DNA of 64,000 nucleotides from Fidelibacterota bacterium (GTDB lineage: Bacteria > Fidelibacterota > Marinisomatia > SCGC-AAA003-L08 > JACNLC01), in NCBI GenBank assembly GCA_013204025.1, contig JABMOW010000126.1, positions 4,399 through 68,398 on the forward strand. Reading direction: 5' to 3'. Positions 14,976 through 64,000 of this stretch are shown one piece after another. The translations under genes and the position numbers were made by a program. The notes below the pieces were generated by a model that had not been told where the DNA came from, ran no database searches, and worked only from the letters and a program-made list of their open reading frames with translations. Within the stretch, counting starts at the first letter, position 1, and every line of letters begins with the position of its first letter.

Positions 14976-14986
14976 GGTTCTCTCTG

Positions 14987-18999: not shown

Positions 19000-19978
19000 G
19001 TAATTGCTCCGTGATGGAAATCAAAGAAACCGGGATTTTACGGAATTTACTTGCTAAAATTCCAGCGCCATATGCAGGGGATAATTCAGAAAACACCCAG
19101 CCCAAATGAGGAATATCAAACCGTAACGCATCTCGCAGTCCATTGCGATAAAGAGGATTATTTAATACACTACCATTACCTGCGATGATAAAGGGATTGG
19201 TTTTGGTATTTACATTCATTTCTGCGGCCAGTTCAATTATGAGTTCGGCAACACTCATTGTAGCTTCCTGAATAATTCCAAGAGCAACGTCATTTCCATC
19301 GTCCGCTAATTGACAAATGGGTAGGCATAAAGATGCAATTTTAGATACAGATTTGGTAGATTTCATCGCTGATTCCACCGCATCAGAGAAGTCGTCACCA
19401 TCAAAGTGACCGGTTATAAGTGTGGAGATGGCCATCAAATCCGGTTCTGAATGGATGGTATTATCGCTCAAAGCCACTTTTAGCATGGCTTCTTTCCCCA
19501 TCCAGAAACCACTCCCACTATCTACATCGTGTCCCAGCCCACCGGTTCTGATGATTTCTCCGTTATCATTTCTCGCCATACAAATCACACCGGTACCGAT
19601 GGAAACCAGAATCCCTTTTCCGATGGGACAACTGATCTCATATGCAGCTTCTGCATCCGACATAATGATCGCACGATTGGATATCTGCATGCCATCCAAT
19701 TCTTTAAAAACTTTATCTCTGCCATCCTCATTGCTAGCTCCTGCCAATCCTAATCCGATGGCGTCAATTTCGGTTAGCTCCAGATTGTGTTTTGTGCATA
19801 AAGCGTTAATCGCTTTTGATATCCGCCCAGGGGCTTTATCAAAATTAACCGTAAGGCTGCTCCCCTTGAATGATATTTGATCAATGGTTTTTCCATTATC
19901 ATCAAAAAGGATCGCTTTGCTATGAGATGCACCGCCGTCAATTCCGATGATCAGTTTTGGTCGTATTGAGTTCTTCAA
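18977..19978 (-). CDS. BadF/BadG/BcrA/BcrD-type ATPase, probable N-acetylglucosamine/N-acetylmuramate kinase
   Basis: 333-aa ORF with the ASKHA phosphate-1 motif IGIDGGASHSK and a DxGSG block. Confidence 0.8.
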   Translation of the reverse strand: MKNSIRPKLIIGIDGGASHSKAILFDDNGKTIDQISFKGSSLTVNFDKAPGRISKAINALCTKHNLELTEIDAIGLGLAGASNEDGRDKVFKELDGMQISNRAIIMSDAEAAYEISCPIGKGILVSIGTGVICMARNDNGEIIRTGGLGHDVDSGSGFWMGKEAMLKVALSDNTIHSEPDLMAISTLITGHFDGDDFSDAVESAMKSTKSVSKIASLCLPICQLADDGNDVALGIIQEATMSVAELIIELAAEMNVNTKTNPFIIAGNGSVLNNPLYRNGLRDALRFDIPHLGWVFSELSPAYGAGILASKFRKIPVSLISITEQLRADRSIS

Positions 19979-33866: not shown

Positions 33867-34991
33867 ATGTCTCGTTCTTTTCTAACATTAATATTATTCG
33901 TTAGCTTGATAATTTCTCAGGATCATGCTAGTTTTTATAACGGAGAATTATCTTTTTCTTATAGTGGTGCTATGAACGGTACTTTTTATGCCAATCTGGA
34001 TAATCCCGATTCATTATCCATCGCATCCAGTGGAGCATTTTGTATTATCAATTCTGATTCAGTATCCAACAGGATCATCATCCCCGCATTTCAACCATCA
34101 CCGAATTTGTCAAGCGCCATAGACCTTTTTATTCTGTATATGACCAGTGATGGAACGGAGATCGATCCTCAACAATGGGATGTGGTCACACCGGACCCCA
34201 CGAATCTTGAAAATACTTCCGCAACGATGTTATTTATCCCTGAAGTGGACTCCTCACAGGTCATGGGCATCATTGCACCACTCCTGAATGGTGAAGTAGA
34301 TTCAACCAATTTTTCTGATTTCCTTTTGGAAACCATTGCTGCTTTGATAACCGATTCCTTCCTCCCACTATCCGGTGAAATCGTTCTGGATGCAATTGAT
34401 GAATCGGATATGTCAGGCGGATTTTCCGGCACTCTCTTTCAGACTGGGTTCCCCCCTCCCATCGTATTTATAACAAACGGGAGTTTTACGCTTACTGCAC
34501 CTGCCGGGCAATTGCAGCCATCACCCCCTGTAGATTTTACCATACAATTAGTCGAAAGTGACGCCTATCTTCAATGGAATTTTGCTGGCGTAGATTCATT
34601 GCTAAACTTCACAACTGTTCATAAATTGGCATATCTCGATAGCGGAATGATCACCATCAACATTGAAGTCCCATTTCCTGAAACAGAGTTCTTCGATACG
34701 GACATCGAGCCGATGATTGATTATGAATATTTTTTAACCGTTACCAATATTTTAGGAATGTCTAGTGAACCTACAGAAACGATTTCGTTTTATTTTGAGA
34801 CGAACCTTTTAGGTGATTTGAACATGGATGGTGATATCAATGTACTGGATATCGTAACGATGGTGAATTTTGTTCTGGGAGCGGATACGCCTACAGATTA
34901 TGAAATGTGGGCTGGTGATCTAAATTCAGATGGAAACCTGGATGTTTTAGACATTGTCACCATTGTGAATATTATTTTGGAAGATAGCTAA
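33867..34991 (+). CDS. Secreted protein with an Fn3-like region and a C-terminal dockerin-like module
   Basis: 374-aa ORF with a signal peptide. The last 59 aa (nt 34812-34988) are GDLNMDGDINVLDIVTMVNFVLG and GDLNSDGNLDVLDIVTIVNIILEDS. An AAGGAG RBS lies upstream. Confidence 0.8.
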   Translation: MSRSFLTLILFVSLIISQDHASFYNGELSFSYSGAMNGTFYANLDNPDSLSIASSGAFCIINSDSVSNRIIIPAFQPSPNLSSAIDLFILYMTSDGTEIDPQQWDVVTPDPTNLENTSATMLFIPEVDSSQVMGIIAPLLNGEVDSTNFSDFLLETIAALITDSFLPLSGEIVLDAIDESDMSGGFSGTLFQTGFPPPIVFITNGSFTLTAPAGQLQPSPPVDFTIQLVESDAYLQWNFAGVDSLLNFTTVHKLAYLDSGMITINIEVPFPETEFFDTDIEPMIDYEYFLTVTNILGMSSEPTETISFYFETNLLGDLNMDGDINVLDIVTMVNFVLGADTPTDYEMWAGDLNSDGNLDVLDIVTIVNIILEDS

Positions 34992-38064: not shown

Positions 38065-38639
38065 GTTGAAGTAACCTCCGTAATTATTCGTTCAGATAAT
38101 TTTCGCAATGCGAATTCAATAGCGCTTTCCCGTGGGGAACCGTATTCGTCATCATCCTCCGCATCCAGAAATCCATCATTATCATTATCAATGCCATCAC
38201 TGTGAATATCCAAGCCTGTACCATAGGCTCCCCAGTCAGAAATGCTTTTTTCAAACAAGGGTTCATTTCGAGTCAGATCGTACCAAACCACTTTCGCTGA
38301 AATGGTGATCCTCCACTCTTCTACTACTTCATAGTTTAAACCTGTAGGCGCAGATATGGTGTAGGGTTGATCTTTCACCGATGTGATAATCACATTCAGA
38401 CGGCTGTCAGCAATGTCTTCCCCTGTGACTTCCAGTACATTGTCCGATATCATTCTTTCGGTGAGTTTAATCTCCAAATTTTCAGACACACCAAATTCGC
38501 TTGATTCATTTACGACCGGTGTTAATGAAATACTTTTGATATGTGCGGGGATCGAACCTTTGAGAGAGTAGAATCCGCAACCGGTGACCACTAGCCCGAT
38601 AAAGGCAATGATGCTAATTTTTACGTATGCCATATTCAC
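38058..38639 (-). CDS. LptE-like LPS-assembly lipoprotein with an acidic Asp-rich C-terminal extension
   Basis: 193-aa ORF. The lipobox and N-terminus ([28 protein letters not shown]) match the Bacteroidetes-style LptE pattern. The C-terminal [24 protein letters not shown] is calcium-binding-loop-like. Confidence 0.65.
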
Positions 38640-39831
38640 TAATCTTTCGATAAAGGGTTCGTTCTGAAATATCTAAAGCCCGAGCGGTTTTCCGTCGGTT
38701 ATCGTTAAATTTTTCTAATGTACGTTCTATCATTTCATGTTCGAGGTCGGTGATAGTAATCTCGCCAATGGCTTCTTTTCTGATTGCCCGAAACCGACCC
38801 TCTTCAACTTCCTGAATTTCTCCGGAAGGTATATGTGCATTCACTTTTTTATCGGTTGGTGGCAGGTACAACGCTGAATTTGCCGGATACATACTTTCGT
38901 TTGTCCGATCATGTTCAGACAGAAGAAGTTGTTTGATCTCATTCACATCTTGCCGAACATACAGCAATTGTTTCAAAATAAGTTCGCGTTCCATTTTATC
39001 TGATTCACCATCGATAAGGATCGGTAAATTCATATTAATATCTTTGACATTCAATCCCAGGGATTTGCGAACCTGATCTTCTGTGATGCGTTCACCCCTG
39101 TGGATGACAATCAGACTTTCCACCAGATTTTTTAATTCACGGATATTTCCCGGCCAGTGGTACGATCGCATAACTTTAATCGCATCGGCGACAAACCCTC
39201 TAAACACGATGTCATTTTTTGCACAAAATTCTAATCCAAATCGTTCAATGAACAAATGGATATCTGAAGTATGGTCTCTTAACGGCGGGACCTTAATCGT
39301 TATGGTTTTCAGTCTAAAATACAGGTCTTTTCGAAATTTTTCTTTACGGACTTCATTTGTTAATTCGCGATTGGTGGCGGCGATCACCCTTGTGTCCACT
39401 CGTTCAGTTTTGCTGCCACCTACTCTCATAAATTCGCCCTGTTCGATGACGCGCAGTAATTTTGCCTGGGTTTCTATAGGTGTCTCACCGATCTCATCCA
39501 GAAAGATGGTACCTTTATGAGCGGTTTCAAAATAACCTTTCCGTTCCTCGGTGGCACCCGTAAAAGAGCCTTTTTTATGCCCGAATAATTCACTCTCAAT
39601 GATTCCTGCAGGGATGGCCCCGCAATTGACGGTAACCATTGGTTCAAATTTCCGACGGCTGTTTTTATGGATGGCTTTTGCGACCATTTCTTTTCCGGTC
39701 CCGGATTCTCCATCAATCAGTACACTGATATTCGTATCCGCCACCTGTCCGATAAGCATCAACATGTCGCGAATCAATTCGGATTCTCCAACGATGCCTA
39801 CCGATTTTCTGATTTTTTCTATATCAATCAT
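38614..39831 (-). CDS. Sigma-54-dependent transcriptional activator (AAA+ domain + C-terminal HTH, no N-terminal sensory or receiver domain)
   Basis: 405-aa ORF with Walker A (GESGTGKE), a GAFTGA-type loop (KGSFTGA), ESELFGH and the arginine-finger region. A Fis-type HTH lies at the C-terminus (NRRKTARALDISERTLYRKI). The AAA+ domain starts within ~20 aa of the N-terminus. Confidence 0.9.
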   Translation of the reverse strand: MIDIEKIRKSVGIVGESELIRDMLMLIGQVADTNISVLIDGESGTGKEMVAKAIHKNSRRKFEPMVTVNCGAIPAGIIESELFGHKKGSFTGATEERKGYFETAHKGTIFLDEIGETPIETQAKLLRVIEQGEFMRVGGSKTERVDTRVIAATNRELTNEVRKEKFRKDLYFRLKTITIKVPPLRDHTSDIHLFIERFGLEFCAKNDIVFRGFVADAIKVMRSYHWPGNIRELKNLVESLIVIHRGERITEDQVRKSLGLNVKDINMNLPILIDGESDKMERELILKQLLYVRQDVNEIKQLLLSEHDRTNESMYPANSALYLPPTDKKVNAHIPSGEIQEVEEGRFRAIRKEAIGEITITDLEHEMIERTLEKFNDNRRKTARALDISERTLYRKISEYGIRKN

Positions 39832-43412: not shown

Positions 43413-44843
43413 ATGAAGAAAAAACATTTAGTCTGGCTTATCCTCATTTGGACATCCATAATTGCCACCTCTTTTGGGTGGAATTATTTATTGCTTTTAT
43501 CCAATAACCAAAAAGTAGTTCTCAATAAATCACAGGCTTTTTTTGAACAAATATTGGTTACGCGAGCTTGGAACGCTCAACACGGCGGTGTATATGTCCC
43601 CGTAACTGAAACCACACCTCCAAATCCGTATCTTAAAGACCCACTCAGAGACGTCGTTACTGTTGATGGGTTGCAGCTTACAAAATTAAATCCGTCTTAT
43701 ATGACCCGACAGATCTCTGAAATAGACAAAAATAATTACGATCTTCATTTTCACATCACCAGTTTGAATCCCATACGCCCGGAGAATAAGGCCGATGAGT
43801 GGGAAACCACTGCACTTACTTTATTCGAAAAAGAAACCCCTGAAATACTTGAAGTGGTCAAAACGGAATCAAGTTCTCAATATCGGTATATGGCTCCGTT
43901 GATTACCGAAAAAAGCTGTCTTAAATGCCATGAAAAGCAAGGGTATAAATTGGGGGACGTCCGTGGTGGCATCAGTATATCTTTTTCTTCAGATATGTAT
44001 TTAAAAGGGATGGAAAAACAAATATTCGCCTTATCTGCGATCCATCTTCTGATCCTTGGATTGGGAATAATGGGTATTTTTTATTATCGCAAAAAAACTA
44101 ATACTTATTTTTCTATTATCAAGAACAAGAATACAGAACTGATGCAAACGAATGCAACAAAAGATAAGTTTTTCTCAATCATTGCCCATGATCTACGAAA
44201 TCCGTTCAATATAATTCTTGGGTACACGGACTTATTAAAATCAGGATACCACGATCTCAAAGATGATGATCGAGAAGAGATCATTGGAGAAATTGATAAA
44301 TCATCAAATAGAGCGTTTGAATTATTAGAAAACTTATTGTTGTGGGCAAGAGTTCAAAAAGATAGACTTGAAATAGTAAAAGTAGATTTGAATGTAAAAG
44401 AAATAATCAATGGGGCAACTGAGGCATATCTCTCTGGCGCGGAAAAGAAAAACCTCACAGTTGATTTTGGGATTCCTGAGAACATTATTATTCATGCAGA
44501 TAAATTCACCATAAGTACCGTTATTGTCAATCTGTTTAGTAATGCAATTAAGTTCACTCCCGAAAATGGGAATATAGATATTAGTGCAACCGATAAAGAT
44601 CATTTTATTGAGATCAGTATTTCTGACAATGGGATGGGTATCCCTCCTGAAAACATATCAAAACTATTTCGCGTGGAATATAATCTCTCCACTTTGGGTA
44701 CAAATGATGAAAAAGGCACCGGATTGGGGTTAATACTGTGTAAAGAATTCGTAGAAAAAAATGGCGGAACCATACGGGTTGAAAGTGAAGTGGGAAAAGG
44801 TACGAATTTTATCATTACGATTCCCAAAAGGAACGACCTATAA
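43413..44843 (+). CDS. Sensor histidine kinase with a periplasmic DUF3365 (Tll0287-like) domain carrying a c-type heme-binding motif
   Basis: 476-aa ORF. TM1 (aa ~5-27) is followed by a periplasmic domain containing C169-LK-CH (nt 43917-43931) and then TM2 (aa ~205-225). It has an H-box (FFSIIAHDLRNP) and an HATPase_c domain (N-box NAIKFT, G-boxes DNGMGI and GTGLGL). Confidence 0.88.
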   Translation: MKKKHLVWLILIWTSIIATSFGWNYLLLLSNNQKVVLNKSQAFFEQILVTRAWNAQHGGVYVPVTETTPPNPYLKDPLRDVVTVDGLQLTKLNPSYMTRQISEIDKNNYDLHFHITSLNPIRPENKADEWETTALTLFEKETPEILEVVKTESSSQYRYMAPLITEKSCLKCHEKQGYKLGDVRGGISISFSSDMYLKGMEKQIFALSAIHLLILGLGIMGIFYYRKKTNTYFSIIKNKNTELMQTNATKDKFFSIIAHDLRNPFNIILGYTDLLKSGYHDLKDDDREEIIGEIDKSSNRAFELLENLLLWARVQKDRLEIVKVDLNVKEIINGATEAYLSGAEKKNLTVDFGIPENIIIHADKFTISTVIVNLFSNAIKFTPENGNIDISATDKDHFIEISISDNGMGIPPENISKLFRVEYNLSTLGTNDEKGTGLGLILCKEFVEKNGGTIRVESEVGKGTNFIITIPKRNDL

Positions 44844-52052: not shown

Positions 52053-53930
52053 CTAGCCAGAGGTCTGGTCCAACATCTCAACTTCCACCCGGTTTCGTCC
52101 GTTTCTTTTGGCTTCATATAGCGCTACATCCGCTTTTTCAATAAGAATTGTTGGTTCGTATTCCTCTCCGGGAGTGATGCAACTGACTCCAAGACTTAAG
52201 CTGATAAAATCAAATACATCAGAATCTTTGTGGGGAATTTTTCTACCTACTATCTTTTCCCTCACTTTATTTGCAAGCTTGATCGCACCTTCCAATGGAG
52301 TATTGGGAAGAACAATTCCAAATTCTTCTCCACCATATCTCCCTACAAGATCGCTCACTCGATTTGTAGAATTTGCAATTGTCTTTGCTACTGTGATGAG
52401 ACATTGGTCACCCTTTTGGTGGCCGTATGCATCATTATATTTTTTGAAATAGTCAATATCACACATAATAAGAGAAATTGGATTGTGATCACGATTCATT
52501 CTTCGACATTCTGTCGATAAATATTCATCAAATCGTCTGCGGTTTGCGACTCCCGTCAAGCCGTCTTTCATAGAGATTTCCTGCAATTTCTGATTGACTT
52601 TCTGTAATTCAGAAGTCCGTTGCTTAACCTTCTCTTCCAGATCAGTTTGGTGATATTCTAGCAATTGCCGTTGCTGATCGACGGTGTGAAATAAAACAAA
52701 AAATCGCTTTGAAAGAATCATTGATTGACAAAATATAAAATACACAACACCAAACGAGATGATTTGAGCCGTATCAATAATCTCATTATTATGAAGGATA
52801 TCGTTCACCATCGCAACAAATAACACAACAGCGCCATGAAGAAAAATTCTTGCACCTTCTCGTCCAACCATCGCCGCTTTTAGCAAGAACCAGAACATAT
52901 GTAAAGATGCAAAAAATGAGAACGCCTGGTAAATCACAATGGATTCGGAATATACACGAGCAGGAGCGAATATTACCAACAGTGTAAAGAAAACAGATAT
53001 GGTGATCACGACCCTAATAAAGGATTTACTCACCTCTTCCTTAAATAAGGTGTAGAGGAAGATGGTAAACAATGGAAATCCACAGTAGTACGTCAGGTAT
53101 TCCAGTTTCACCAGAAATTCCCACGGAATATCTATCACCCTAACAATAAAAATATCACCGATAATCAAAGCACGGATGGTAAGAATGAAACAGAATATAC
53201 TAAATATTAGTGGTGATAAAAATTTCTTTCTAATGATAAAAAGCGAGAGATGATACATCGCGATAATAAAGATGCACCCTACGAGAAATATTTGCATTGC
53301 ACGTGTTAGTTCTAATTCATCCCATACACTAGTGATTGTACCCAGTTTTACAGGTTCCCAAATACCACCTACGCGATGATAAAAATTGGATACCTGCATA
53401 ATCAATTCGATATGATCAGTATCGTATGAAAAATTGTAGTATGTTGGCTTGTATTCAGGAGTAGATAGATCCGGGGTCATCCCAACTTTTCCTACTTGCC
53501 CCATTAATTTCCCATTGATATAAACAATGTAGGAAGTGCTTACCGACCCAACTTTTAAGGATAGTGATTGGTTTGTAGAATCTGTTAAAATAGTAAGCCG
53601 ATATGTTGCATATCCATTCGGTTTATATTTTTCTTCTTTGGGGAAAAGGGATGTCCATACACCAGGGACTATCAGGTATTTAACATAACCTGAATAATCA
53701 TTTTTTTTAAAATCTTCGGGAGAAATTAATTGATCCCAATAAAACTCCCATTCACCACCTAAATCAACGGGATCAGTTTGAGACAGGTCAATACCACGTA
53801 GGTCCAATACACCATCATGTATTTTAGGTATATCTGAAATGTTTCCCGATACATTATTACCGAATGTGACTCCGATAATAAATAGAAGTGAGATGATTCT
53901 AAAAGAGGAAATGATTTTACTAATTTTCAT
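52053..53930 (-). CDS. Diguanylate cyclase with 7TMR-DISM extracellular and 7TM sensor domains
   Basis: 625-aa ORF. The order is signal peptide, extracellular beta-sandwich-like domain, seven TM helices, coiled-coil linker and GGDEF domain (RYGGEEFGIVL). Confidence 0.88.
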   Translation of the reverse strand: MKISKIISSFRIISLLFIIGVTFGNNVSGNISDIPKIHDGVLDLRGIDLSQTDPVDLGGEWEFYWDQLISPEDFKKNDYSGYVKYLIVPGVWTSLFPKEEKYKPNGYATYRLTILTDSTNQSLSLKVGSVSTSYIVYINGKLMGQVGKVGMTPDLSTPEYKPTYYNFSYDTDHIELIMQVSNFYHRVGGIWEPVKLGTITSVWDELELTRAMQIFLVGCIFIIAMYHLSLFIIRKKFLSPLIFSIFCFILTIRALIIGDIFIVRVIDIPWEFLVKLEYLTYYCGFPLFTIFLYTLFKEEVSKSFIRVVITISVFFTLLVIFAPARVYSESIVIYQAFSFFASLHMFWFLLKAAMVGREGARIFLHGAVVLFVAMVNDILHNNEIIDTAQIISFGVVYFIFCQSMILSKRFFVLFHTVDQQRQLLEYHQTDLEEKVKQRTSELQKVNQKLQEISMKDGLTGVANRRRFDEYLSTECRRMNRDHNPISLIMCDIDYFKKYNDAYGHQKGDQCLITVAKTIANSTNRVSDLVGRYGGEEFGIVLPNTPLEGAIKLANKVREKIVGRKIPHKDSDVFDFISLSLGVSCITPGEEYEPTILIEKADVALYEAKRNGRNRVEVEMLDQTSG

Positions 53931-57102: not shown

Positions 57103-57495
57103 ATAATAGGATAATACTATCAGATTTTTATTTTATTCACTTGATTTTCAAACAGTTAACATAATTACTGAGTATTATTTAAGAAAAATAATGCACAAAT
57201 ATTTCTCTAAATACATGATTATTAATAACTAATGTATTTTTTACCATCTGAACTTAAATTATTGTTCTGCAAAATAATGGTGTTTTTATATTTGGATGCT
57301 TTGGTATTTTATTGGTAAACTTAACCCGTTGGCACCAAGTTTATTGACATTGCAAAGCGGCGGTATTGTTTAAGAAATACCTTTCCTTAAGTTACTTTCC
57401 TTTTTTGTTGTGGTGATGAACAAAATCCTAGGAAGCAATATCTCCTGAATTCAATAACTTGATGATCATGGCTTTTAAGCCACATATTAATGTAT

Positions 57496-57530
57496 AAGAG
57501 TCCCGCTCCCTCCGCGGGACTCTTTTTTTT
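57496..57530 (+). terminator. Strong orphan rho-independent terminator in the 775-bp rsmE/porin spacer
   Basis: AAGAGTCCCGC-tccctcc-GCGGGACTCTT forms an 11-bp stem followed by a T8 run. It lies ~400 nt downstream of the rsmE stop and ~350 nt upstream of the next gene. Confidence 0.85.
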
Positions 57531-57877
57531 AGGTAAACTTCATCCAAATTATACCAATTTAAGATAAAATTCCGTCCTGTTGATATTAAGGCAAAGGCAT
57601 CTTTTATATTGTTTAGGGTTTACTCAGATTGATAAATTTTGCTGCTTAAAACGTTGATAACTAAATATTTTAACAGTTATGATGATGATTAAGGAGAACT
57701 GCGTGTCGGTCTGCGATCACGGAAAAGAAATTGCAATCAAGATAGGTAAGGCATCAGAAATGTGGAAAATCTGCATCCATTTTTCAGATTGTAGACAAAC
57801 CTAATCATGATCAATTTTCACATGCGGTTTATTTTACCTGGAATCATTGATGCTCTTTTCAAAATGGAGGTTCATGA

Positions 57878-59074
57878 ATGAAAATATCTTACTTTAAAAT
57901 AGTAAAGATTGTAATTTGTATGTGCACATGTTTGACAATGCTATTGTCAATTTCGAAACCTGAAATCACCCTTTCACAATATGTTGTCTCCCCCAGAATA
58001 AACTTATTTACTGATCCTGCTTATGAATATAACCAGGTACCGGGTTTAGATGAGAATGTTCTTTACCGCACTCAAATAGATTTTCGATATCAATTTTCGG
58101 AACGAGTTCATATCTCATGCATATCAGAATACGGCTCTCCGAATTTCAGATATGATCAAGACTTCCGTCTTCAATCTTTGATAGTCGATTTTAAACAGGA
58201 GAACTATAACGTATCGGTCGGTCGTCAAACATTACGTAATCCGTTTTACTATACACATATTGACGGAATCAAACTAGAAACACCCGACGGACAAGGGAAT
58301 CAATTCTCCATATCTGCAGGACTAATACCTGAATTTTTTAATAATCCGGGAACTCAAAAAAAGATCATCCAGGCTTCAGGAAAATTTACCTACGATCTTG
58401 GAGTGTCCACCCTATCTATCTGGGATATAAAAGAGAATTCCGAAAATTCATACACTGCAGGATTGATCAACCGTCATCGGATATCCGATCAGCTGAATTT
58501 CACTACCTATCTGTCATGGAATCTGAAAGAAAATATCCCTTACTATAACAAACTACATATCAGGTATGGAAAAGGTAAGCAATCTATGTATCTGGGATTT
58601 CGCCAGAGAGTATTTAACATTGAGGACCTTTATCCATGGATACCTGATGAGAATTGGGTCATTAAGTCAATGTATGTAGGCGGCTACCACAATTTATCAC
58701 ATGATCTGATGTTTAAATTACATTATAGTGTCCGATATGCCGATCGCCAGGGTTCACAGTTTCAGACATCCTTTCAATACAAGAAATATAATTTGACAAT
58801 ATTGACTGGTGACATAGATGGAAGCAAATTAACAGGAGGTATGTTTTCCGCCCGGTACGATTTAAATTCGGCGATATCATTTGGCGGAAACTTCTCATTG
58901 AACTCAGTGGATGAGATTGACGAAACCGAACTTTTAGAATCCACTTCAATTTATGGCTGGTCTGAAGTGAAAATCGGTCACAGTCTAAAAGTACGGATAT
59001 TCGGCCAATATTCTGAAAATTCTTATTACACTCAAGATGGCAGAGGAGGAATATTTTTAAGTTATGTATTCTAA
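57878..59074 (+). CDS. Putative outer-membrane beta-barrel protein (porin component of a porin-cytochrome module)
   Basis: 398-aa ORF with a GGAGG RBS 8 nt upstream and a hydrophobic signal-like N-terminus. Alternating hydrophobic/polar strands with Tyr/Gly-rich girdle residues run throughout. It has no CxxCH motif. The C-terminal ...GGIFLSYVF has the aromatic terminal residue typical of OMPs. The downstream gene starts 11 nt before its stop codon. Confidence 0.7.
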   Translation: MKISYFKIVKIVICMCTCLTMLLSISKPEITLSQYVVSPRINLFTDPAYEYNQVPGLDENVLYRTQIDFRYQFSERVHISCISEYGSPNFRYDQDFRLQSLIVDFKQENYNVSVGRQTLRNPFYYTHIDGIKLETPDGQGNQFSISAGLIPEFFNNPGTQKKIIQASGKFTYDLGVSTLSIWDIKENSENSYTAGLINRHRISDQLNFTTYLSWNLKENIPYYNKLHIRYGKGKQSMYLGFRQRVFNIEDLYPWIPDENWVIKSMYVGGYHNLSHDLMFKLHYSVRYADRQGSQFQTSFQYKKYNLTILTGDIDGSKLTGGMFSARYDLNSAISFGGNFSLNSVDEIDETELLESTSIYGWSEVKIGHSLKVRIFGQYSENSYYTQDGRGGIFLSYVF

Positions 59075-59897
59075 AATTAAATTACTTACCATTTGCATCC
59101 TTGGGGTAACCACCTGGTTATTTGCCAGGGATCAAATTGTCTTCCCTCATGATTATCATATTGGTGAAGAGGAATTGGAATGTACGTTGTGTCATGAAGA
59201 TGTCTATAATTCCAAGTCTCTGGGTAGCTCATTGCTTCCCAAGATGGATGTCTGCTCAGAATGTCACGATACGGATGATGACTGCGAACTATGTCATACA
59301 AACCCGGATGACCCACTTAGTTTTCCTCTATTCGGGAATACTTCAGGAAAGGATTTTTCTCATTCATTCCACCTGGATCGATTTATAGATTGTACTACCT
59401 GTCACTCATCCATTTTAGCGGATGATGGCCAGGGTGATCGACCTGTGTGGGAAAGTTGGAAATGTACAACCTGCCATCAATCCAACAAACCGGCGGATCA
59501 TGACCTGGCATGGAAATCCTTTCACGGAATGGATGCTGCCGCGGTCAGTGAAACACGTTGCCAATTGTGCCATACAGAAATATTCTGCGAGGACTGTCAT
59601 TCCTATCAACAGTTTGAACCTACATCTCACCCAATTAATTATATTTACCAACATTCTTTTGAAGCAAGAGCGGAGACATTTGAATGCTCCACTTGTCATA
59701 ACATTGACAACGATTGCAGGAAGTGTCATAACGAACAAATGGTTTTCCCTACAAATCACAGTTTAATTCAATGGTATGTCCCAACAGATAACCTCAGTGG
59801 TGGGTTGCACGGCGATGAAGCTATCAATAATCCAGATAATTGTCAGGTTTGTCATTCCACAACGAGCTGCATGGAATGTCATGGAGGTAACGAATGA
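59064..59897 (+). CDS. Periplasmic undecaheme c-type cytochrome (11 CxxCH)
   Basis: 277-aa ORF with a Sec signal peptide (MYSKIKLLTICILGVTTWLFA). I counted 11 CxxCH motifs. It has a c7/c3-like start, FPHDYHIGEEELECTLCH. Confidence 0.9.
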   Translation: MYSKIKLLTICILGVTTWLFARDQIVFPHDYHIGEEELECTLCHEDVYNSKSLGSSLLPKMDVCSECHDTDDDCELCHTNPDDPLSFPLFGNTSGKDFSHSFHLDRFIDCTTCHSSILADDGQGDRPVWESWKCTTCHQSNKPADHDLAWKSFHGMDAAAVSETRCQLCHTEIFCEDCHSYQQFEPTSHPINYIYQHSFEARAETFECSTCHNIDNDCRKCHNEQMVFPTNHSLIQWYVPTDNLSGGLHGDEAINNPDNCQVCHSTTSCMECHGGNE

Positions 59898-61897
59898 AGA
59901 TAAAAAATATTCTATCAGTTTTTGTAGTCTTGTCCCTAATACTACTGATAAATAGATGTTCCGAGACCGTTCAACCAAATGTTCATCCCGTTGAATGGAT
60001 GGATACTTCCAGCGAAAACTTTCACGGCAGACAACTTTTAAATGAAGGGTTGGGGGGAATAGAGTATTGCCGAACATGCCATGGTGAAAACCTGAATGGC
60101 GGTAATGCAGACATCGCCTGTGACCAATGCCATGCTGGTGGTTTAAGTGGCCACCCCGCTTGGAATGCATTTGTTACGAGTGTCGACAGTTTGACGCACC
60201 ATGGTCGTTTCTTTTATGAAAACGGGATCGATGGCGTAGAGTATTGTAAAAATTGTCACGGCGATGATTTGACTGGCGGTTTAGCTGGGTACTCATGTTA
60301 CCAGTGCCACAGCGGTGGACCAACCGGACATCCAGCTGATTCGATTTTCATGTCTTTTTCCTCTGGTCAGTTCCACGGTGAAGGGAGAGAATGGCAATCG
60401 GGTACATCTCATTGTATGAATTGTCACGGAGATAATCTGGATGGTGGTGTAGCTGAATATACCTGCAGAGAGTGCCATACCGAAGAACTTCCCGTACACA
60501 CTCATGATCCGGGATGGATCGATATTTCATCCCCTCTGTTTCATGGATCTGATTATATTTGGGATTCTGTTACGGTTTTGTGCATAGGTTGTCACGGAGA
60601 CAATCTGGATGGTGGAATGCTTACCATCAATTGTGGAGACTGTCACTCTAGTCAATTACCAATGCACACCCATGACCCGGACTTTGGGGATTATGGTACA
60701 CTTTTATTTCATGGAAACCAGTTTGACTGGGATAACGATCTGAACTTATGTTTTACTTGTCATGGAGAGGACCTCGATGGTGGATCCGCTCAGTTTTCCT
60801 GCAGAGGTTGCCATGCAGAAGAGCTTCCGTTACATACGCATGCACCGGAGTTTAATCAATATGCAGCCGATGGATTTCATGGTGATGTATTCAGTTGGGG
60901 TACCGATCTGACCTTGTGCTCCAATTGTCATGGTGTAAACCTTGATGGTGGTGAAGTTGATTTTTCGTGCCGTAATTGCCACACAATTGGTCTACCCTTA
61001 CATACTCATGACCTTGGATCGTTAATCTATGGTTCTCCTGAATTTCATGGAGACTATTTCGACTGGGAAATGGATGCCAATACATGCAAATCTTGTCATG
61101 GCGACGCTCTAAACGGCGGATTTGTCGGTTTATCATGCAGGACTTGCCATACAGAAGAATTACCATACCATGCACACGGCGCTTCTGCACTTGACCCATT
61201 TTCCCCTGACTATCACGGTAAACTTCTTTGGGAAAATGGTTGGGATTTCGATGCCTGTGGGAATTGCCATGGCGCAGACCTTAGTGGAGGAATAGTTAAT
61301 GTTAGTTGTACCGCCAGCTGTCACCAAGAACAAAATGGACTTGGATATTGCGCTAATTGCCACGGAGACCGACTAAGCGGAAATCCTGTACCGCCATTGG
61401 GAATCATGAATAGCGATGACCCCAGCGATCTGTCTGTGGGTACGCATCAGATTCATTTAAACTCTGCAATTGCTATTGTCTCCTGTAGTGATTGCCATGT
61501 TATTCCCAATGATTATTTGGATGATGGACATCTGGGAGCAGATAATCGGGCAGAAGTTGTAATCACAGAAGATTTCAATTTTTATCAGCTCATCCCGGAA
61601 TATGATTATTCTACCGGGACATGTTCAAACAGCTATTGTCACGGCGGATTTTCATTTCCAAAAGCTGGAAGCAGTGCAGCATGGGTTCATACGCAGGATG
61701 AGATTATCGGAAATAATCAGCCGATGATTTGGAATGATCTGCAAAGCTTGACCTGTACCGGCTGTCACGGTTTACCTCCGGAAGGTCATTTGAATAATGG
61801 TCTTCCTTGTATCAACTGTCATTCAAGTGTGGTAAACGGATCTTTACAAATTATTAATCCACCACTACATATCAACGGAGAAATTAATCGTAATTAA
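59894..61897 (+). CDS. Large multiheme c-type cytochrome, probable lipoprotein (19 CxxCH + one CX3CH + one CX4CH)
   Basis: 667-aa ORF whose start forms an ATGA overlap with the upstream gene. The signal peptide ends LLINRC (Cys22). Eight tandem di-heme modules are followed by a C-terminal CANCHG...CSDCH...CSNSYCHGG...CTGCHGLPP...CINCH region resembling the Geobacter CxxxxCH...CXXCH domain. Confidence 0.9.
   Translation: MKIKNILSVFVVLSLILLINRCSETVQPNVHPVEWMDTSSENFHGRQLLNEGLGGIEYCRTCHGENLNGGNADIACDQCHAGGLSGHPAWNAFVTSVDSLTHHGRFFYENGIDGVEYCKNCHGDDLTGGLAGYSCYQCHSGGPTGHPADSIFMSFSSGQFHGEGREWQSGTSHCMNCHGDNLDGGVAEYTCRECHTEELPVHTHDPGWIDISSPLFHGSDYIWDSVTVLCIGCHGDNLDGGMLTINCGDCHSSQLPMHTHDPDFGDYGTLLFHGNQFDWDNDLNLCFTCHGEDLDGGSAQFSCRGCHAEELPLHTHAPEFNQYAADGFHGDVFSWGTDLTLCSNCHGVNLDGGEVDFSCRNCHTIGLPLHTHDLGSLIYGSPEFHGDYFDWEMDANTCKSCHGDALNGGFVGLSCRTCHTEELPYHAHGASALDPFSPDYHGKLLWENGWDFDACGNCHGADLSGGIVNVSCTASCHQEQNGLGYCANCHGDRLSGNPVPPLGIMNSDDPSDLSVGTHQIHLNSAIAIVSCSDCHVIPNDYLDDGHLGADNRAEVVITEDFNFYQLIPEYDYSTGTCSNSYCHGGFSFPKAGSSAAWVHTQDEIIGNNQPMIWNDLQSLTCTGCHGLPPEGHLNNGLPCINCHSSVVNGSLQIINPPLHINGEINRN
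59996..61333 (+). repeat. Eight in-frame tandem ~168-nt (56-aa) di-heme modules inside the 21-heme cytochrome gene
   Basis: The first-heme cysteines fall at aa 59, 118, 174, 230, 286, 342, 398 and 455, giving spacings of 59/56/56/56/56/56/57. The module consensus is FHG..(F/W)........C..CHG.NLDGG.....C..CH.EELP.HTHDP. Confidence 0.85.
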
Positions 61898-62059
61898 TTC
61901 GAAAATCTGATTAGATAAAAGATAGATTAGTAAAAGTAAAGAAAATCGAATTTTGAACAAAATTAAACGTCTGTAAACATTTGGTAGCGTGGTCGATATC
62001 TCTTCGACCACCTGAGATGAATCGGACATATATTCTTATAGAACGAACTTAAGGACCAA

Positions 62060-64000
62060 ATGAAGAAATATCTTAATTTGCTTTTGAGTGTTGTCCTCAT
62101 TGCTTTGAGCCTTTCTCAGGACAATGATACCTGTGAAGATTGCCATGATGACGAGTCGTTGTCCATTGTAAAATATGGGCTCGAATATTCACTGTATGTT
62201 ACCAGCGACCATCTTGAAGATTCTCCCCATGAAGGATTCGATTGCATAGATTGTCATACGGACTTGGATGGAGTTGAAGATTTCCCTCATACTGAACGGT
62301 TAATTCTTCCCGATTGCGGTAATTGCCATGAAGAGGCAGCTGCTGAATTTATTGAGGGATTTTTTCAGCCTTTAAGGGACAAAGGATATACTTCTATTCC
62401 AAAATGTGCTGATTGTCACGGTACTCACAAAGTTTCATGGAAGGGTGAGCCGCGACAGGTTTGTGGTATTTGTCATCAGGATATTCTCGATGATTTTCTG
62501 CACTCTGCTCACTGGAAAGAAGATCAGACATCCGATCTTACCTGCGTCACTTGCCATTCACCACATAATAAAGTTGAAAAAGAATCTTTCACACCCAGTC
62601 AGTGGAAAATCCATATTACTGAGTACTGTCGTGATTGCCATGCATCTGAAGTGGCCAATTATGACTTAAGCGGCCATTTTAACGAAGTTGAAAACGGAAA
62701 TCTTTCCGCCCCCATCTGCGTTGACTGCCATGATCAGCATAAAGTATTGTCGCCCCTAGATTCTCAAAGCCGTGTCTCCGTTGCCCGATTGGATGTAACC
62801 TGCACAAAATGTCATATAGATTATGAAAAATCTATCCACCGATTAGAAGTGCAAGATGATCCGCGTCTGGAGACCTGTGTTGTATGCCACACTGGACATG
62901 AGACTGCCATGAATGATAAGACTCGTTCCGGTGTGTTCGACCTTCATCTGAGTCAGGTTTGTTTAAAATGTCATGAGGTGAGTCTGATTACCGGTGAAAA
63001 TGATGCCCATGGTTCCATCCATCGAACCGAACTGGAAAAAATTAATAATGGCCAGAATGCAGATTGCGGAAACTGTCACGCATATCACTTCACAACCGAA
63101 GGTCACCTCATCCACTCCGGATTACAAAAATCATGTGCCGACTGTCACCCGAAACAACAACAGGAATATGAAAAATCGTCCCATTATGTTGCCTTGGAAA
63201 AAGGACACCCTGAAGCCCCCGGATGTATGACCTGTCATGGATTGAGTGAAATTCAGAAACCCAAGGGGCAGCTTACCGGAAAAAATGTAGTAGATATGTG
63301 TGGAAGATGTCATGGCGATCGGGAAATGACCCTAAAATTCCAGTTGAGTACAGAGGTTATGGCAGGATATGAGTCTTCTTATCATGGACAGATGTATCAG
63401 TTGGGATATCAGGGTGAAGAGTTTGCCACCTGTGTTTCCTGTCATGACAATCACTCAATCATGCCAAGTGATGACCCGGAATCCTCTATCGGTCAGGCAC
63501 ACATCATGGAGACTTGTGCCCAATGTCATAAGAACGTTACACCAAATTTCGTGCGCTATCTGCAGCACTACACACCAATGGTCACAGAAAAAAATGTGCC
63601 TTTGCATATGATCCATACATTCATGCTTTGGCTTTTGGGAGTCACATTGTTCATCTTTGGTGGACACACAATTCTGTGGTTTATACGTTTGATCATTAAA
63701 AGAGTTATCGATGGACCCATCAAAAAAGTACCAAAATCTAATACTCGAATTATCCGGTTTAAACCCTTCGAAAGGATTATGCATTTAGGTGTTATTATCT
63801 CTTTTATAACCTTGGCTACTACAGGGTTACCCTTGAAATACAGTCATTCAAAATTGGCTACCTGGTTTGTAAATAATATCATTGGTTTTGAGAATGCTGC
63901 TTTATTGCACAGGGCAGCTGCGATTTTAATATTTACCGTATTTTTTATACACCTATGCATCATCATATATAAAGCATTCGTTATAAAGAAAAAAGGCGTA
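62060..64000 (+). CDS. Multiheme c-type cytochrome (17 CxxCH) fused to a cytochrome-b-type (FdnI/HydC/b561-like) membrane domain; 3'-truncated by the window edge
   Basis: This ORF is absent from the ORF track because it has no stop codon in the window. I translated it by hand: ATG at 62060 (AAGGA RBS), then 647 uninterrupted codons to 64000. It has a signal peptide (MKKYLNLLLSVVLIALSLSQ) and 17 CxxCH, many in the paired form CxxCHxxH. From nt ~63600 there are at least 3 TM helices with His residues (FERIMHLGVIISFITLATTGLPLKY; LLHRAAAILIFTVFFIHL). Confidence 0.85.
   Translation, partial: MKKYLNLLLSVVLIALSLSQDNDTCEDCHDDESLSIVKYGLEYSLYVTSDHLEDSPHEGFDCIDCHTDLDGVEDFPHTERLILPDCGNCHEEAAAEFIEGFFQPLRDKGYTSIPKCADCHGTHKVSWKGEPRQVCGICHQDILDDFLHSAHWKEDQTSDLTCVTCHSPHNKVEKESFTPSQWKIHITEYCRDCHASEVANYDLSGHFNEVENGNLSAPICVDCHDQHKVLSPLDSQSRVSVARLDVTCTKCHIDYEKSIHRLEVQDDPRLETCVVCHTGHETAMNDKTRSGVFDLHLSQVCLKCHEVSLITGENDAHGSIHRTELEKINNGQNADCGNCHAYHFTTEGHLIHSGLQKSCADCHPKQQQEYEKSSHYVALEKGHPEAPGCMTCHGLSEIQKPKGQLTGKNVVDMCGRCHGDREMTLKFQLSTEVMAGYESSYHGQMYQLGYQGEEFATCVSCHDNHSIMPSDDPESSIGQAHIMETCAQCHKNVTPNFVRYLQHYTPMVTEKNVPLHMIHTFMLWLLGVTLFIFGGHTILWFIRLIIKRVIDGPIKKVPKSNTRIIRFKPFERIMHLGVIISFITLATTGLPLKYSHSKLATWFVNNIIGFENAALLHRAAAILIFTVFFIHLCIIIYKAFVIKKKGV

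What the first reader, a model, noticed from the sequence alone, without database searches (positions are those of the whole stretch)
57878..64000. Candidate complete extracellular electron transfer conduit: beta-barrel OMP + 11-heme + 21-heme + 17-heme/cytochrome-b fusion (49 heme-binding motifs)
Seen in sequence: the window ends with four co-directional genes. (1) 57878-59074 encodes a 398-aa heme-free protein with a signal-like N-terminus, barrel-type strand periodicity and a C-terminal ...FLSYVF. (2) 59064-59897 starts 11 nt before the barrel's stop codon and encodes a 277-aa protein with a Sec signal and 11 CxxCH. (3) 59894-61897 starts with an ATGA overlap and encodes a 667-aa protein. 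Its signal peptide ends at Cys22 (possible lipoprotein), and it has 19 CxxCH plus one CX3CH and one CX4CH. (4) After a 162-nt spacer, 62060 to beyond 64000 encodes a signal peptide, 17 CxxCH and then a polytopic His-containing cytochrome-b-like domain. Established knowledge: the order barrel, small periplasmic multiheme, large lipoprotein multiheme is that of the Geobacter ombB-omaB-omcB porin-cytochrome clusters, which are functionally analogous to MtrCAB. Geobacter CbcL is a multiheme-c/diheme-b fusion that connects the menaquinone pool to periplasmic carriers. Inference: together these genes would wire the quinone pool to the cell surface. The direction of electron flow (metal or electrode reduction versus Fe(II) or electrode oxidation) is undetermined. 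Other features of the window (T9SS CTD, dockerins, Bacteroidetes-style LptE) point to an FCB-type organism rather than to a relative of the model electroactive Proteobacteria or Desulfuromonadia. The 11/21/17 heme architecture does not match any described Pcc, Mtr or Cbc protein known to me.
Basis: partly seen in the sequence, partly recalled or inferred. Interest (0 to 1): 0.88.

Follow-up and report, generated by a model that had tools for sequence, protein, structure and literature searches.

The report
Marinimicrobia porin-cytochrome electron conduit cluster
An uncultured marine Marinimicrobia bacterium carries a gene cluster that looks built to pass respiratory electrons from its inner membrane through an outer-membrane barrel to the cell surface; this kind of wiring is known from metal-breathing bacteria, and I found no report of it for this abundant ocean phylum.

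Summary

- The heme-free protein models with high confidence as a 22-stranded beta-barrel.
- The Cys that ends the signal peptide of the 21-heme protein is kept in 23 of the 24 homologues read. In distant ones the lipobox is canonical.
- The order barrel, ~11-heme, lipoprotein multiheme is conserved down to 19% barrel identity and across 44 non-redundant lineages.
- No catalytic reductase lies in the 12-gene cluster or is consistently linked elsewhere.

The window cuts the cluster short. On the parent 81-kb contig it has 12 genes and 99 heme motifs. It holds five putative quinone-pool modules: two CbcL-like c/b fusions, one NapC/NirT-type 18-heme protein and two FeS-NrfD-multiheme sets.

NCBI names a protein 100% identical to one cluster protein as Candidatus Marinimicrobia. 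Near-identical copies occur in Baltic Sea water-column metagenomes.

This is a new variant of the known porin-cytochrome kind, not a new kind. Three things are distinctive:
- a barrel family with no Pfam, NCBIfam or PDB match;
- a surface cytochrome built from 1 to 17 copies of a 56-residue diheme module;
- the host phylum.

Function, surface exposure and direction of electron flow remain inferred.

The parts
57496..57532 (+). Intrinsic terminator that closes the upstream unit, so g1 starts its own transcription unit about 350 nt further on
   Evidence: The scan finds an 11-bp stem with 7 G-C pairs followed by T8. The sequence is identical in L008.
57878..59074 (+). g1: heme-free outer-membrane 22-strand beta-barrel of 398 aa, with a signal peptide and a C-terminal ...Y-x-F signal
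   Evidence: AlphaFold2 gives pLDDT 88, pTM 0.76 and 22 strands. Foldseek matches only large barrels: ushers, a TonB-dependent receptor, porins, and MtrB at rank 49. There is no Pfam or NCBIfam hit and no PDB sequence hit. The family has 36 representative clusters among 1.84 billion proteins. A GGAGG Shine-Dalgarno sequence precedes the ATG.
59064..59897 (+). g2: soluble periplasmic 11-heme cytochrome of 277 aa, 25 residues per heme, with a Sec signal and no lipobox
   Evidence: It has 11 CxxCH, all conserved in 42 homologues. The family profile matches PDB 3ov0 at E = 3e-30, the pentaheme subunit A of Alternative Complex III at E = 1e-18, and chain 6r2q_A at 1.4e-5. PF14522 scores 59.8 bits. 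The start overlaps g1 by 11 nt, and the same overlap is seen in L012 at 19% barrel identity.
59894..61897 (+). g3: 21-heme lipoprotein cytochrome of 667 aa and the proposed surface component
   Evidence: It has 19 CxxCH, one Cx3CH and one Cx4CH. The lipobox Cys22 is conserved. TIGR01904 scores 33.2 bits against a cut-off of 27.
59957..59959 (+). Codon for Cys22 of g3, the predicted lipidation site (..LINRC|SETV)
   Evidence: 23 of the 24 homologue N-termini read have a Cys after the hydrophobic region; L022 is cut right after its Cys, and in L060 no Cys was seen in the 30 residues printed. 20 of the 24 have C-x-[D/E] (read).
60002..61327 (+). g3 residues 37-478: eight tandem ~56-residue diheme modules of the form FHG..CxxCHG.(N/D)L.GG..CxxCH..LP.H.H
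   Evidence: The repeats are aligned. The module count in homologues ranges from 1 to 17, giving 7 to 38 hemes. The module has no PDB homologue beyond the heme motif itself.
61328..61897 (+). g3 C-terminal five-heme domain with the Cx4CH...CxxCH motif, ending ..HINGEINRN
   Evidence: Scanned alone, the domain scores 22.4 bits for PF09698 against a cut-off of 21.7. The (K/L)HING ending recurs in many homologues.
61898..62059 (+). 162-nt spacer between the g1-g3 unit and the g4-g8 unit; it holds an 8-bp hairpin with no T-run after it
   Evidence: The sequence is. The terminator scan reports nothing here.
62060..64000 (+). g4, cut by the window end (829 aa in full): a signal peptide, a 17-heme periplasmic c domain (about 62117-63574), then a FdnI/HydC-type cytochrome b membrane domain (from about 63602)
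   Evidence: It has 17 CxxCH. Full-length g4 scores 35.2 bits for PF01292 against a cut-off of 30.1 and 42 bits for TIGR01583, which is below that model's cut-off. It has six hydrophobic stretches, two of them overlapping. Conserved His are H575, H617, H631, H731 and H746.

Best explanation
g1, g2 and g3 encode a three-part outer-membrane electron conduit of the porin-cytochrome type.
- g1 is a 22-strand barrel that forms a sheath in the outer membrane.
- g2 is a very heme-dense 11-heme rod. It is proposed to sit inside the barrel and to project into the periplasm.
- g3 is a lipoprotein proposed to be lipid-anchored on the outer face. It would take electrons from g2 through its conserved N-terminal part and carry them along eight diheme modules to a five-heme end domain.

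Electrons are proposed to enter from the quinol pool through inner-membrane cytochromes encoded directly downstream. These are the 17-heme/diheme-b fusion g4 (CbcL-like), the NapC/NirT-type 18-heme g5, and three further modules beyond the window: g6-g8, g9 and g10-g12.

The net function proposed is respiration of an extracellular, probably particulate, acceptor such as Mn(IV) or Fe(III) oxides or humic material at pelagic redoxclines. The same hardware could also run inward.

Shown here: gene structure, motif counts, the barrel fold prediction, domain memberships, conserved gene order, the conserved lipobox and the absence of catalytic subunits.

Inferred: complex formation, surface exposure of g3, the electron acceptor and the direction of flow.
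For: - Barrel. pLDDT is 88 with 22 strands. The nominal backbone radius is about 20 A, against 23.5 A for a 26-strand barrel such as MtrB.
- Overlapping start codons. The g1/g2 and g2/g3 overlaps suggest translational coupling. They are kept in L012 at 19% barrel identity.
- Triad conservation. All four GTDB-genome loci found with the barrel alignment carry the triad.
- Wider gene order. Among 44 non-redundant g2-family lineages, 27 of 28 with enough upstream DNA have an abutting heme-free ORF of at least 330 aa. 24 of 30 have a multiheme ORF just downstream.
- Lipoprotein. The g3 homologues have a conserved lipobox Cys.
- Conserved versus variable parts. g2 keeps 10-14 hemes while g3 varies from 7 to 38 by module number. 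Geobacter conduits show the same contrast between a conserved periplasmic part and a variable extracellular part (PMC6148476).
- Pure electron carriers. g2 has 25 and g3 has 32 residues per heme, there is no CxxCK, and the His count is enough for nearly all bis-His ligation.
- g2 relatives. The g2 profile matches the elongated dodecaheme 3ov0 at E = 3e-30.
- Inner-membrane partners. g4 passes PF01292 and g5 passes PF03264.
- No catalytic subunit. The 12-gene, 99-heme cluster has none.
- Smallest locus. L012 has only barrel, g2, g3 and g5, between the lon gene and the ATP synthase operon.
- Composition. The cluster's GC content of 41.4% is close to the window's 40.3%.
- Definition met. All three elements used to define putative conduits in Geobacter are predicted here (PMC6148476).
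Against: - There are no expression, biochemical or localisation data.
- Insertion of g2 into the barrel was not modelled. No multimer tool was available, and the single-sequence model of g2 failed with pLDDT 34.
- The window's own lipobox (L-I-N-R-C) is non-canonical.
- Surface exposure of a lipoprotein cannot be predicted for this phylum.
- The barrel shows no sequence similarity to MtrB or to any annotated family. Homology to known conduit barrels is therefore unproven.
- NrfD/FeS/multiheme modules of the type found downstream also serve inward electron flow in sulfate reducers (own knowledge).
- I found no published physiology linking Marinimicrobia to metal respiration.
Confidence: 0.68

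Rival explanations
1. The hardware is the same but the direction is reversed. The conduit takes electrons up from an extracellular donor (Fe(II), reduced minerals, a partner cell or a cathode) and delivers them to the quinone pool or to periplasmic oxidants.
For: Mtr, Mto and CbcL/MtoC homologues occur in both Fe(III) reducers and Fe(II) oxidisers, so sequence does not fix direction (PMC6295460). NrfD/FeS/cytochrome modules like g6-g8 and g10-g12 reduce menaquinone in sulfate reducers (own knowledge).
Against: Five parallel quinone-pool modules resemble the ImcH/CbcL set that Geobacter uses for acceptors of different redox potential (PMC6295460). No terminal oxidase, carbon-fixation or reverse-electron-flow genes lie in the cluster. 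Marinimicrobia are described as heterotrophs (PMC5688066, PMC7382037).
Confidence: 0.2
2. The conduit has two components, as in MtoAB or PioAB. Barrel plus g2 alone cross the outer membrane. g3 is anchored on the inner leaflet and acts as a periplasmic wire or electron store that links the inner-membrane cytochromes to g2.
For: Eleven hemes are enough to span an outer membrane, and published work argues that 10-14-heme periplasmic cytochromes can do so without an outer cytochrome (PMC4245776). Surface exposure of g3 is untested. A 21-heme chain is about as long as the periplasm is wide (own estimate).
Against: g3 homologues range from 7 to 38 hemes. That range is hard to reconcile with a fixed periplasmic gap and is typical of extracellular components (PMC6148476). 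g4 and g5 already carry 17 to 18 periplasmic hemes each.
Confidence: 0.12
3. This is a conventional periplasmic respiratory module. The barrel is a substrate porin, for example for polysulfide or another soluble acceptor, and one of the multiheme proteins is the reductase.
For: In the Saanich Inlet relative, a molybdoenzyme/FeS/NrfD set lies about 8 kb upstream. This fits the psrABC genes reported for Marinimicrobia (PMC5688066). Some multiheme cytochromes are catalytic (own knowledge).
Against: That linkage is seen in only one lineage, and rsmE and other genes lie in between. No CxxCK or Cx15CH motifs occur, and the heme density leaves no room for a catalytic domain. The triad stands alone in many loci. 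Overlapping start codons between a barrel gene and a cytochrome gene, kept across the family, are not expected for a plain porin.
Confidence: 0.06

Closest known systems
Geobacter sulfurreducens OmbB-OmaB-OmcB porin-cytochrome (Pcc) complex and the ExtABCD/ExtEFG conduits
   Same: The gene order is barrel, periplasmic multiheme, lipoprotein multiheme. The barrel size class is the same (18-22 predicted strands). An atypical Cx4CH motif occurs in the outer cytochrome. The periplasmic part is conserved and the outer part is variable (PMC4282303, PMC4245776, PMC6148476).
   Different: Heme numbers are 11 and 21 here, against 8 and 12 in OmaB and OmcB. The outer cytochrome here is a tandem array of a 56-residue diheme module. 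No TetR-type regulator is adjacent. The host is Marinimicrobia. Sequence homology of barrel and cytochromes to the Geobacter proteins could not be tested here.
Ignavibacterium album pcc cluster (IALB_1837/1838) and the OmbB-like clusters of other Ignavibacteria
   Same: It is an FCB-group host with a large periplasmic cytochrome (14 hemes, 400 aa) and an outer cytochrome with atypical motifs (PMC4245776, PMC7399161). Low-GC metagenome loci in the wider g2 family have g2 homologues of 390-401 aa with 14 hemes, the same size class.
   Different: The window's subfamily has 11 hemes in 277 aa and a smaller barrel of 380-415 aa. Direct homology was not tested because no reference sequence was available.
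Shewanella MtrCAB (PDB 6R2Q)
   Same: The logic is the same: a barrel sheath, an internal multiheme rod and a surface lipoprotein cytochrome.
   Different: MtrB has 26 strands and about 650 aa and belongs to PF11854, which g1 does not match. g2 is not in the MtrA/DmsE family, with no NCBIfam hit. MtrC-type domains are only weakly matched in g3.
CbcL/MtrH/MtoC family of inner-membrane quinol oxidases/quinone reductases
   Same: g4, and g9 beyond the window, have an N-terminal periplasmic multiheme c domain and a C-terminal HydC/FdnI-type b domain of about six helices. The 17 motifs of g4 lie within the published 3-23 range (PMC6295460).
   Different: CbcL itself has 9 hemes. Marinimicrobia are not among the 15 phyla listed in that survey. 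Here the fusion sits in one cluster with the outer-membrane conduit and four further quinone modules.
GSU1996 dodecaheme 'nanowire' cytochrome (PDB 3OV0; the identity of this entry is from my own knowledge)
   Same: It is the best solved-structure relative of the g2 family (E = 3e-30). It is a chain of c7-type domains forming an elongated heme wire.
   Different: GSU1996 is a free periplasmic protein that is not encoded next to a barrel. g2 has 11 hemes rather than 12.

Membership tests
Outer-membrane electron conduit / porin-cytochrome gene cluster (criteria of PMC6148476 and PMC4245776) | [quoted passage not shown] | tested here: met
   g2 has a Sec-type signal with no lipobox Cys and 11 conserved CxxCH. 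Its location is predicted, not measured.
Outer-membrane electron conduit / porin-cytochrome gene cluster | An integral outer-membrane protein with transmembrane beta-strands lies next to the cytochrome gene | tested here: met
   AlphaFold2 gives 22 strands at pLDDT 88. There is a C-terminal aromatic signal. An abutting heme-free ORF is present in 27 of 28 lineages.
Outer-membrane electron conduit / porin-cytochrome gene cluster | An outer-membrane lipoprotein carries redox cofactors | tested here: met
   g3 has 21 heme motifs and a conserved lipobox Cys. Whether the protein faces outward is not testable with these tools.
Outer-membrane electron conduit / porin-cytochrome gene cluster | The three proteins form a complex that passes electrons across a membrane | not testable with these tools
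   This needs purification and proteoliposome assays, or genetics.
MtrB/PioB barrel family (PF11854) | Sequence match to the family model and a barrel of about 26-28 strands | tested here: not met
   There is no Pfam hit at E <= 1. The g1 profile finds no MtrB in the PDB. The model has 22 strands. MtrB is only rank 49 by fold.
MtrA/DmsE decaheme family (TIGR03508) | Score above the family cut-off for the periplasmic cytochrome | tested here: not met
   g2 has no NCBIfam hit. Only the c domain of g4 scores, at 89 bits against a cut-off of 192.
Geobacter OmbB / OmaB / OmcB families | Sequence homology to GSU2739, GSU2738 and GSU2737 | not testable with these tools
   None of the libraries used returned a model named for these proteins, and no reference sequences could be fetched. 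Gene order and predicted locations agree, but heme numbers differ.
CxxxxCH/CxxCH domain cytochromes (TIGR01904 / PF09698) | Score above the curated cut-off | tested here: met
   g3 scores 33.2 bits against a cut-off of 27 for TIGR01904. Its C-terminal domain alone scores 22.4 against 21.7 for PF09698.
CbcL/MtrH/MtoC family | An N-terminal multiheme c domain plus a C-terminal HydC/FdnI-type diheme-b domain of about six helices | tested here: met
   g4 has 17 CxxCH. PF01292 scores 35.2 bits against a cut-off of 30.1. There are six hydrophobic stretches, two of them overlapping, and five conserved His in or beside them. Orthology to GSU0274 was not tested.
NapC/NirT/NrfH quinol dehydrogenases (PF03264) | An N-terminal membrane helix followed directly by CxxCH, and a score above the cut-off | tested here: met
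   g5 (beyond the window) scores 41.1 bits against a cut-off of 24.1. It has one helix at residues 9-27 followed by CSTCH. It is below the equivalog cut-off for NrfH, at 49 against 134.
ImcH family | Three N-terminal helices, one Cx3CH and five to nine CxxCH | tested here: not met
   g5 has one helix, 17 CxxCH and one Cx4CH. The family criteria are from PMC6295460.

The most novel reading that the evidence does not exclude
The cluster encodes a fully hard-wired heme path with no soluble periplasmic shuttle.
- The inner-membrane-anchored g4 and g5 carry 17 to 18 periplasmic hemes each. That is long enough to reach across the periplasm to the 11-heme g2 in the barrel.
- The surface cytochrome g3 works as a length-adjustable wire. 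Evolution has set its reach by adding or removing a 56-residue diheme module, from 1 to 17 copies and from 7 to 38 hemes.

If so, free-living or particle-attached Marinimicrobia at pelagic redoxclines such as the Baltic Sea and Saanich Inlet would respire particulate Mn/Fe oxides or exchange electrons with partner cells. That would add a major uncultured ocean phylum to the electroactive bacteria.
Probability: 0.2. Interest if true: 0.85.

Novelty: new variant of a known kind. Interest (0 to 1): 0.62.

Why it matters
Marinimicrobia (SAR406) are among the most abundant uncultured bacteria of the dark and oxygen-poor ocean. Published reconstructions give them nitrate, N2O and polysulfide respiration and fermentation (PMC5688066, PMC7382037). 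My literature searches found no paper that links them to multiheme conduits or extracellular electron transfer.

A complete path from quinol pool to cell surface, found in populations from Baltic Sea and Saanich Inlet water columns, suggests a direct role in Mn/Fe-oxide or humic cycling, or in electron exchange between cells, at redoxclines.

The finding also supplies three things.
- A barrel family that current Pfam and NCBIfam models did not match. Marker-based surveys may therefore miss such conduits; this is inference.
- A simple modular diheme repeat that could be used to study or engineer how heme-wire length is set.
- A compact four-gene minimal unit (barrel, g2, g3, g5) suited to heterologous testing.

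Tried and rejected
- **Word-indexed homologue search.** For g1 it found only 2-3 relatives, even when given a profile. The exhaustive HMMER search was needed.
- **Genome scan with the 31-sequence barrel alignment.** It failed for lack of a conserved stretch. A 6-sequence alignment worked.
- **Structure prediction of g2.** The single-sequence model was useless at pLDDT 34, so no fold comparison of g2 was possible.
- **Complex modelling.** No multimer modelling or coordinate output was available, so insertion of g2 into the barrel could not be examined.
- **Sequence searches against solved structures.** g3 gave nothing, the g4 b domain gave nothing, and the g3 repeat profile gave only heme-motif noise.
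- **Context look-up.** I got round this by first finding that protein in a homologue search.
- **Considered and rejected: chance adjacency.** The gene order is conserved down to 19% barrel identity.
- **Considered and rejected: recent horizontal acquisition.** The GC content matches the window. Flanking rsmE, usp and DUF885 are syntenic in a relative with only 57% barrel identity.
- **Considered and rejected: membership of MtrB, MtrA/DmsE or ImcH.** The tests were not met.
- **Considered and rejected: nitrite, sulfite or hydroxylamine reductase roles.** No CxxCK motif was found, the Cx15CH count was zero in g1-g4, and the heme density leaves no room for a catalytic domain.

Full report
**1. 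Observation**

- g1 (57878-59074) is 398 aa, has no heme motif and ends ...FLSYVF.
- g2 (59064-59897) is 277 aa with 11 CxxCH. It starts 11 nt before the g1 stop codon.
- g3 (59894-61897) is 667 aa with an ATGA overlap. Cys22 follows the hydrophobic region. It has 19 CxxCH, one Cx3CH and one Cx4CH.
- After a 162-nt spacer, g4 runs from 62060 to the end of the window with 17 CxxCH and then hydrophobic, His-rich segments.

A strong intrinsic terminator at 57496-57532 separates the cluster from the upstream rsmE gene.

**2. The window cuts the cluster short**

An exact look-up of g3 found the parent contig: JGI 3300032524, 81,436 bp, identical over the overlap. On that contig the cluster continues as follows.

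| Gene | Size | Features |
|---|---|---|
| g4 | 829 aa | 17 c-heme motifs; PF01292 cytochrome b domain, 35.2 bits against a cut-off of 30.1 |
| g5 | 661 aa | one N-terminal helix, then CSTCH; PF03264 NapC/NirT; 18 heme motifs |
| g6 | 268 aa | membrane-anchored, 8 hemes |
| g7 | 249 aa | four-cluster FeS protein with a Tat-like leader |
| g8 | 399 aa | NrfD |
| g9 | 663 aa | 11 c-hemes plus cytochrome b |
| g10 | 292 aa | FeS protein |
| g11 | 406 aa | NrfD |
| g12 | 386 aa | 13 hemes |

Together with g1-g3 this makes twelve co-directional genes in three tightly packed blocks: g1-g3, g4-g8 and g9-g12. They carry 99 c-heme motifs and five putative quinone-pool modules. There is no molybdopterin or other catalytic subunit and no CxxCK motif.

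**3. Organism and habitat**
- NCBI names a protein 100% identical to g9 as 'cytochrome b/b6 domain-containing protein [Candidatus Marinimicrobia bacterium]'.
- A relative with 36% barrel identity is a Candidatus Neomarinimicrobiota MAG named SI047_bin25. That this name refers to Saanich Inlet is my own reading.
- The window also encodes a T9SS-sorted dockerin protein.
- Copies with 95% barrel identity occur in ENA project PRJEB22997. Several papers cite that project as Baltic Sea water-column metagenomes.
- The cluster's GC content (41.4%) is close to the window's (40.3%).
- The flanking DUF885, usp and rsmE genes are syntenic in a relative with only 57% barrel identity. The cluster is therefore resident, not a recent import.

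**4. The barrel**
- g1 has no Pfam or NCBIfam hit, and its family profile has no PDB sequence hit.
- An exhaustive HMMER search of 1.84 billion representative proteins found only 36 clusters. Nearly all are 375-450 aa.
- AlphaFold2 on a 31-sequence alignment gives pLDDT 88, pTM 0.76 and 22 strands joined by short turns.
- The best structural matches are large barrels: the FimD/PapC ushers, a TonB-dependent receptor and porins. MtrB is at rank 49.
- With standard barrel geometry, 22 strands give a backbone radius of about 20 A, against 23.5 A for 26 strands. The lumen is therefore in the size class of barrels that hold a plug domain or a cytochrome. This last step is inference.

**5. The periplasmic cytochrome**
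- g2 has a Sec signal without a lipobox.
- It has 25 residues per heme, and 21 His for 11 hemes.
- All its motifs are conserved in 42 homologues.
- The family profile matches PDB 3ov0 at E = 3e-30. By my own knowledge this is the elongated dodecaheme GSU1996.
- The profile then matches the pentaheme subunit A of Alternative Complex III. Chain 6r2q_A matches only weakly, at 1.4e-5.
- g2 is therefore a pure electron-transfer rod made of c7-type units.

**6. The lipoprotein cytochrome**

g3 has three parts.
- A conserved N-terminal segment follows Cys22 (HP.EWMD..S..FHG).
- Eight tandem modules of about 56 residues follow, each with two hemes.
- A five-heme C-terminal domain carries the Cx4CH...CxxCH signature. 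TIGR01904 scores 33.2 bits against a cut-off of 27. The domain ends in (K/L)HING.

The module has no relative among solved structures.

Across homologues the module count is 1, 2, 3, 5, 6, 8, 9, 11, 13 or 17, which gives 7 to 38 hemes. g2, by contrast, stays at 10-14 hemes.

A Cys after the hydrophobic region is present in 23 of the 24 homologue N-termini read. Most of these have a canonical lipobox. 20 of the 24 have C-x-[D/E].

**7. Conserved gene order**
- All four GTDB-genome loci found with the barrel alignment carry barrel, g2 and g3 in that order.
- A family member with only 19% identity to g1 has barrel, g2, an 11-heme g3 and g5, with the same 11-nt and 4-nt overlaps. It lies between lon and the ATP synthase operon.
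- A metagenome scan with the g2 alignment gave 56 loci. After collapsing g2 homologues at 90% identity, 44 lineages remain.
  - 27 of the 28 lineages with enough upstream DNA have an abutting heme-free ORF of at least 330 aa.
  - 24 of the 30 lineages with enough downstream DNA have a multiheme ORF just after g2.
- In many distant loci the triad stands alone among unrelated genes.
- The only molybdoenzyme seen nearby is about 8 kb upstream in one lineage.

**8. Inner-membrane partners**
- The b domains of g4 and g9 share five conserved His (H575, H617, H631, H731, H746) in or beside hydrophobic segments. This is compatible with the four-His diheme pattern of FdnI. The FdnI comparison is from my own knowledge.
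- The architecture is that of CbcL/MtrH/MtoC: N-terminal c hemes (3-23 in the published survey) and about six helices (PMC6295460).
- g5 is a NapC/NirT-type anchor extended to 18 hemes. It follows the triad in the window, L008, L011, L012 and L019, including two loci where the g4-type fusion is absent.
- The g9 family is very large, with at least 6,733 hits at E <= 1e-10. The barrel family is small. The quinol modules are therefore common in this lineage and the outer-membrane conduit is the rare addition.

**9. Mechanism**

The best-supported reading is a porin-cytochrome conduit.
1. Quinol is oxidised at g4, g5 or one of the other modules.
2. Electrons pass along their 17-18 periplasmic hemes to g2, which sits in the barrel.
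3. They then pass to g3 on the surface and on to an insoluble or extracellular acceptor.

The gene structures, domains, barrel fold, lipobox, gene order and absence of catalytic subunits are shown. Complex formation, surface exposure, the acceptor and the direction of flow are inferred.

I lean towards outward flow for two reasons. Several parallel quinol modules recall the acceptor-potential-specific set of Geobacter (PMC6295460), and the phylum is described as heterotrophic (PMC5688066, PMC7382037). The hardware is nevertheless bidirectional in principle.

The rivals are:
- inward electron uptake;
- a two-component conduit with g3 in the periplasm;
- a periplasmic reductase system with the barrel acting as a porin.

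**10. Comparison with what is known**

The cluster meets all three predictive criteria used for Geobacter conduits (PMC6148476). It has the ombB-omaB-omcB gene order (PMC4282303, PMC4245776).

It is not a member of the MtrB, MtrA/DmsE or ImcH families; these were tested and not met. Homology to OmbB, OmaB and OmcB, or to the Ignavibacterium album cluster, could not be tested because no reference sequences or models were available.

Pcc clusters are already described in the FCB-group Ignavibacteria (PMC4245776, PMC7399161). The kind is therefore known.

Four things are new:
- the barrel family;
- the modular diheme outer cytochrome;
- the co-location with five quinone modules;
- the host phylum.

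For the host phylum, six literature searches found no report of multiheme conduits or extracellular electron transfer (PMC5688066 checked).

**11. Verdict**

This is a new variant of a known kind. Its interest is mainly ecological and comparative, and it is moderately high.

Noticed in passing
window 57287-57532 (+), between rsmE and g1: A non-coding element of about 245 nt ends in the strong terminator. It is 88% identical in a relative whose flanking proteins are only 52-57% identical. It is 70% identical in the Saanich Inlet MAG, where it lies directly after rsmE and 3.4 kb from the barrel. Rfam has no match at the gathering threshold, and the best sub-threshold hit has E = 0.13. A consensus fold of 4 sequences has 55 pairs, 4 of them with compensatory changes. 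It is probably an unannotated small RNA linked to rsmE.
   Followed up: partly
window 12275-19978 (-): A run of genes looks like muropeptide uptake and recycling: the NamZ exo-N-acetylmuramidase, a sodium:solute symporter, a 968-aa GH3/beta-lactamase-fold fusion, alanine racemase and a BadF-type sugar kinase. The only cultured member of this phylum is reported to depend on exogenous muropeptides (PMC11652737, abstract seen).
   Followed up: no
window 43413-44843 (+), 38614-39831 (-), 52053-53930 (-): Three possible regulators lie near the cluster: a histidine kinase with a Tll0287-like sensor domain and a single CxxCH (a possible heme-c redox sensor), a sigma-54 activator, and a 7TMR-DISM GGDEF diguanylate cyclase. 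No link to the cytochrome cluster was tested.
   Followed up: no
window 24605-27877 (-) and 33867-34991 (+): A 1090-aa beta-helix protein carries a dockerin and a T9SS C-terminal sorting domain. A second protein also carries a dockerin.
   Followed up: partly
L074 15433-17006 (parent contig, about 13 kb beyond the window end); L072/L073 17269-21992: After g12 come a TfoX_N protein and a 402-426-aa protein with no Pfam hit. That protein has an N-terminal hydrophobic segment and ends ...GTRF, so it may be a second outer-membrane protein. In close relatives an integrase and differing restriction-modification genes follow, so the cluster borders a variable region.
   Followed up: no
L009 55-3681 and 7414-9769 (Saanich Inlet Neomarinimicrobiota MAG): Upstream of this relative's barrel lie a 10-heme cytochrome and a lipoprotein. 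About 8 kb upstream lies a 713-aa ORF followed by an FeS protein (similar to g7) and a 313-aa membrane protein. This is a psrABC-like arrangement judged by gene order and size only. It is not seen in the other lineages.
   Followed up: partly
L010 3628-4266, L011 3232-3870; L057 3723-4265, L066 8003-8590: Some relatives add a small tetraheme cytochrome of about 180-212 aa, either just after g3 or just before the barrel. The window's cluster has no such gene. It could be a soluble shuttle.
   Followed up: no
L001 19659-21650 (g9, beyond the window): The 11-heme/cytochrome-b fusion g9 belongs to a very large family, with at least 6,733 database proteins at E <= 1e-10 and many at 62-73% identity. 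The barrel family has only 36 representative clusters. These inner-membrane fusions must therefore usually work without this outer-membrane conduit.
   Followed up: partly
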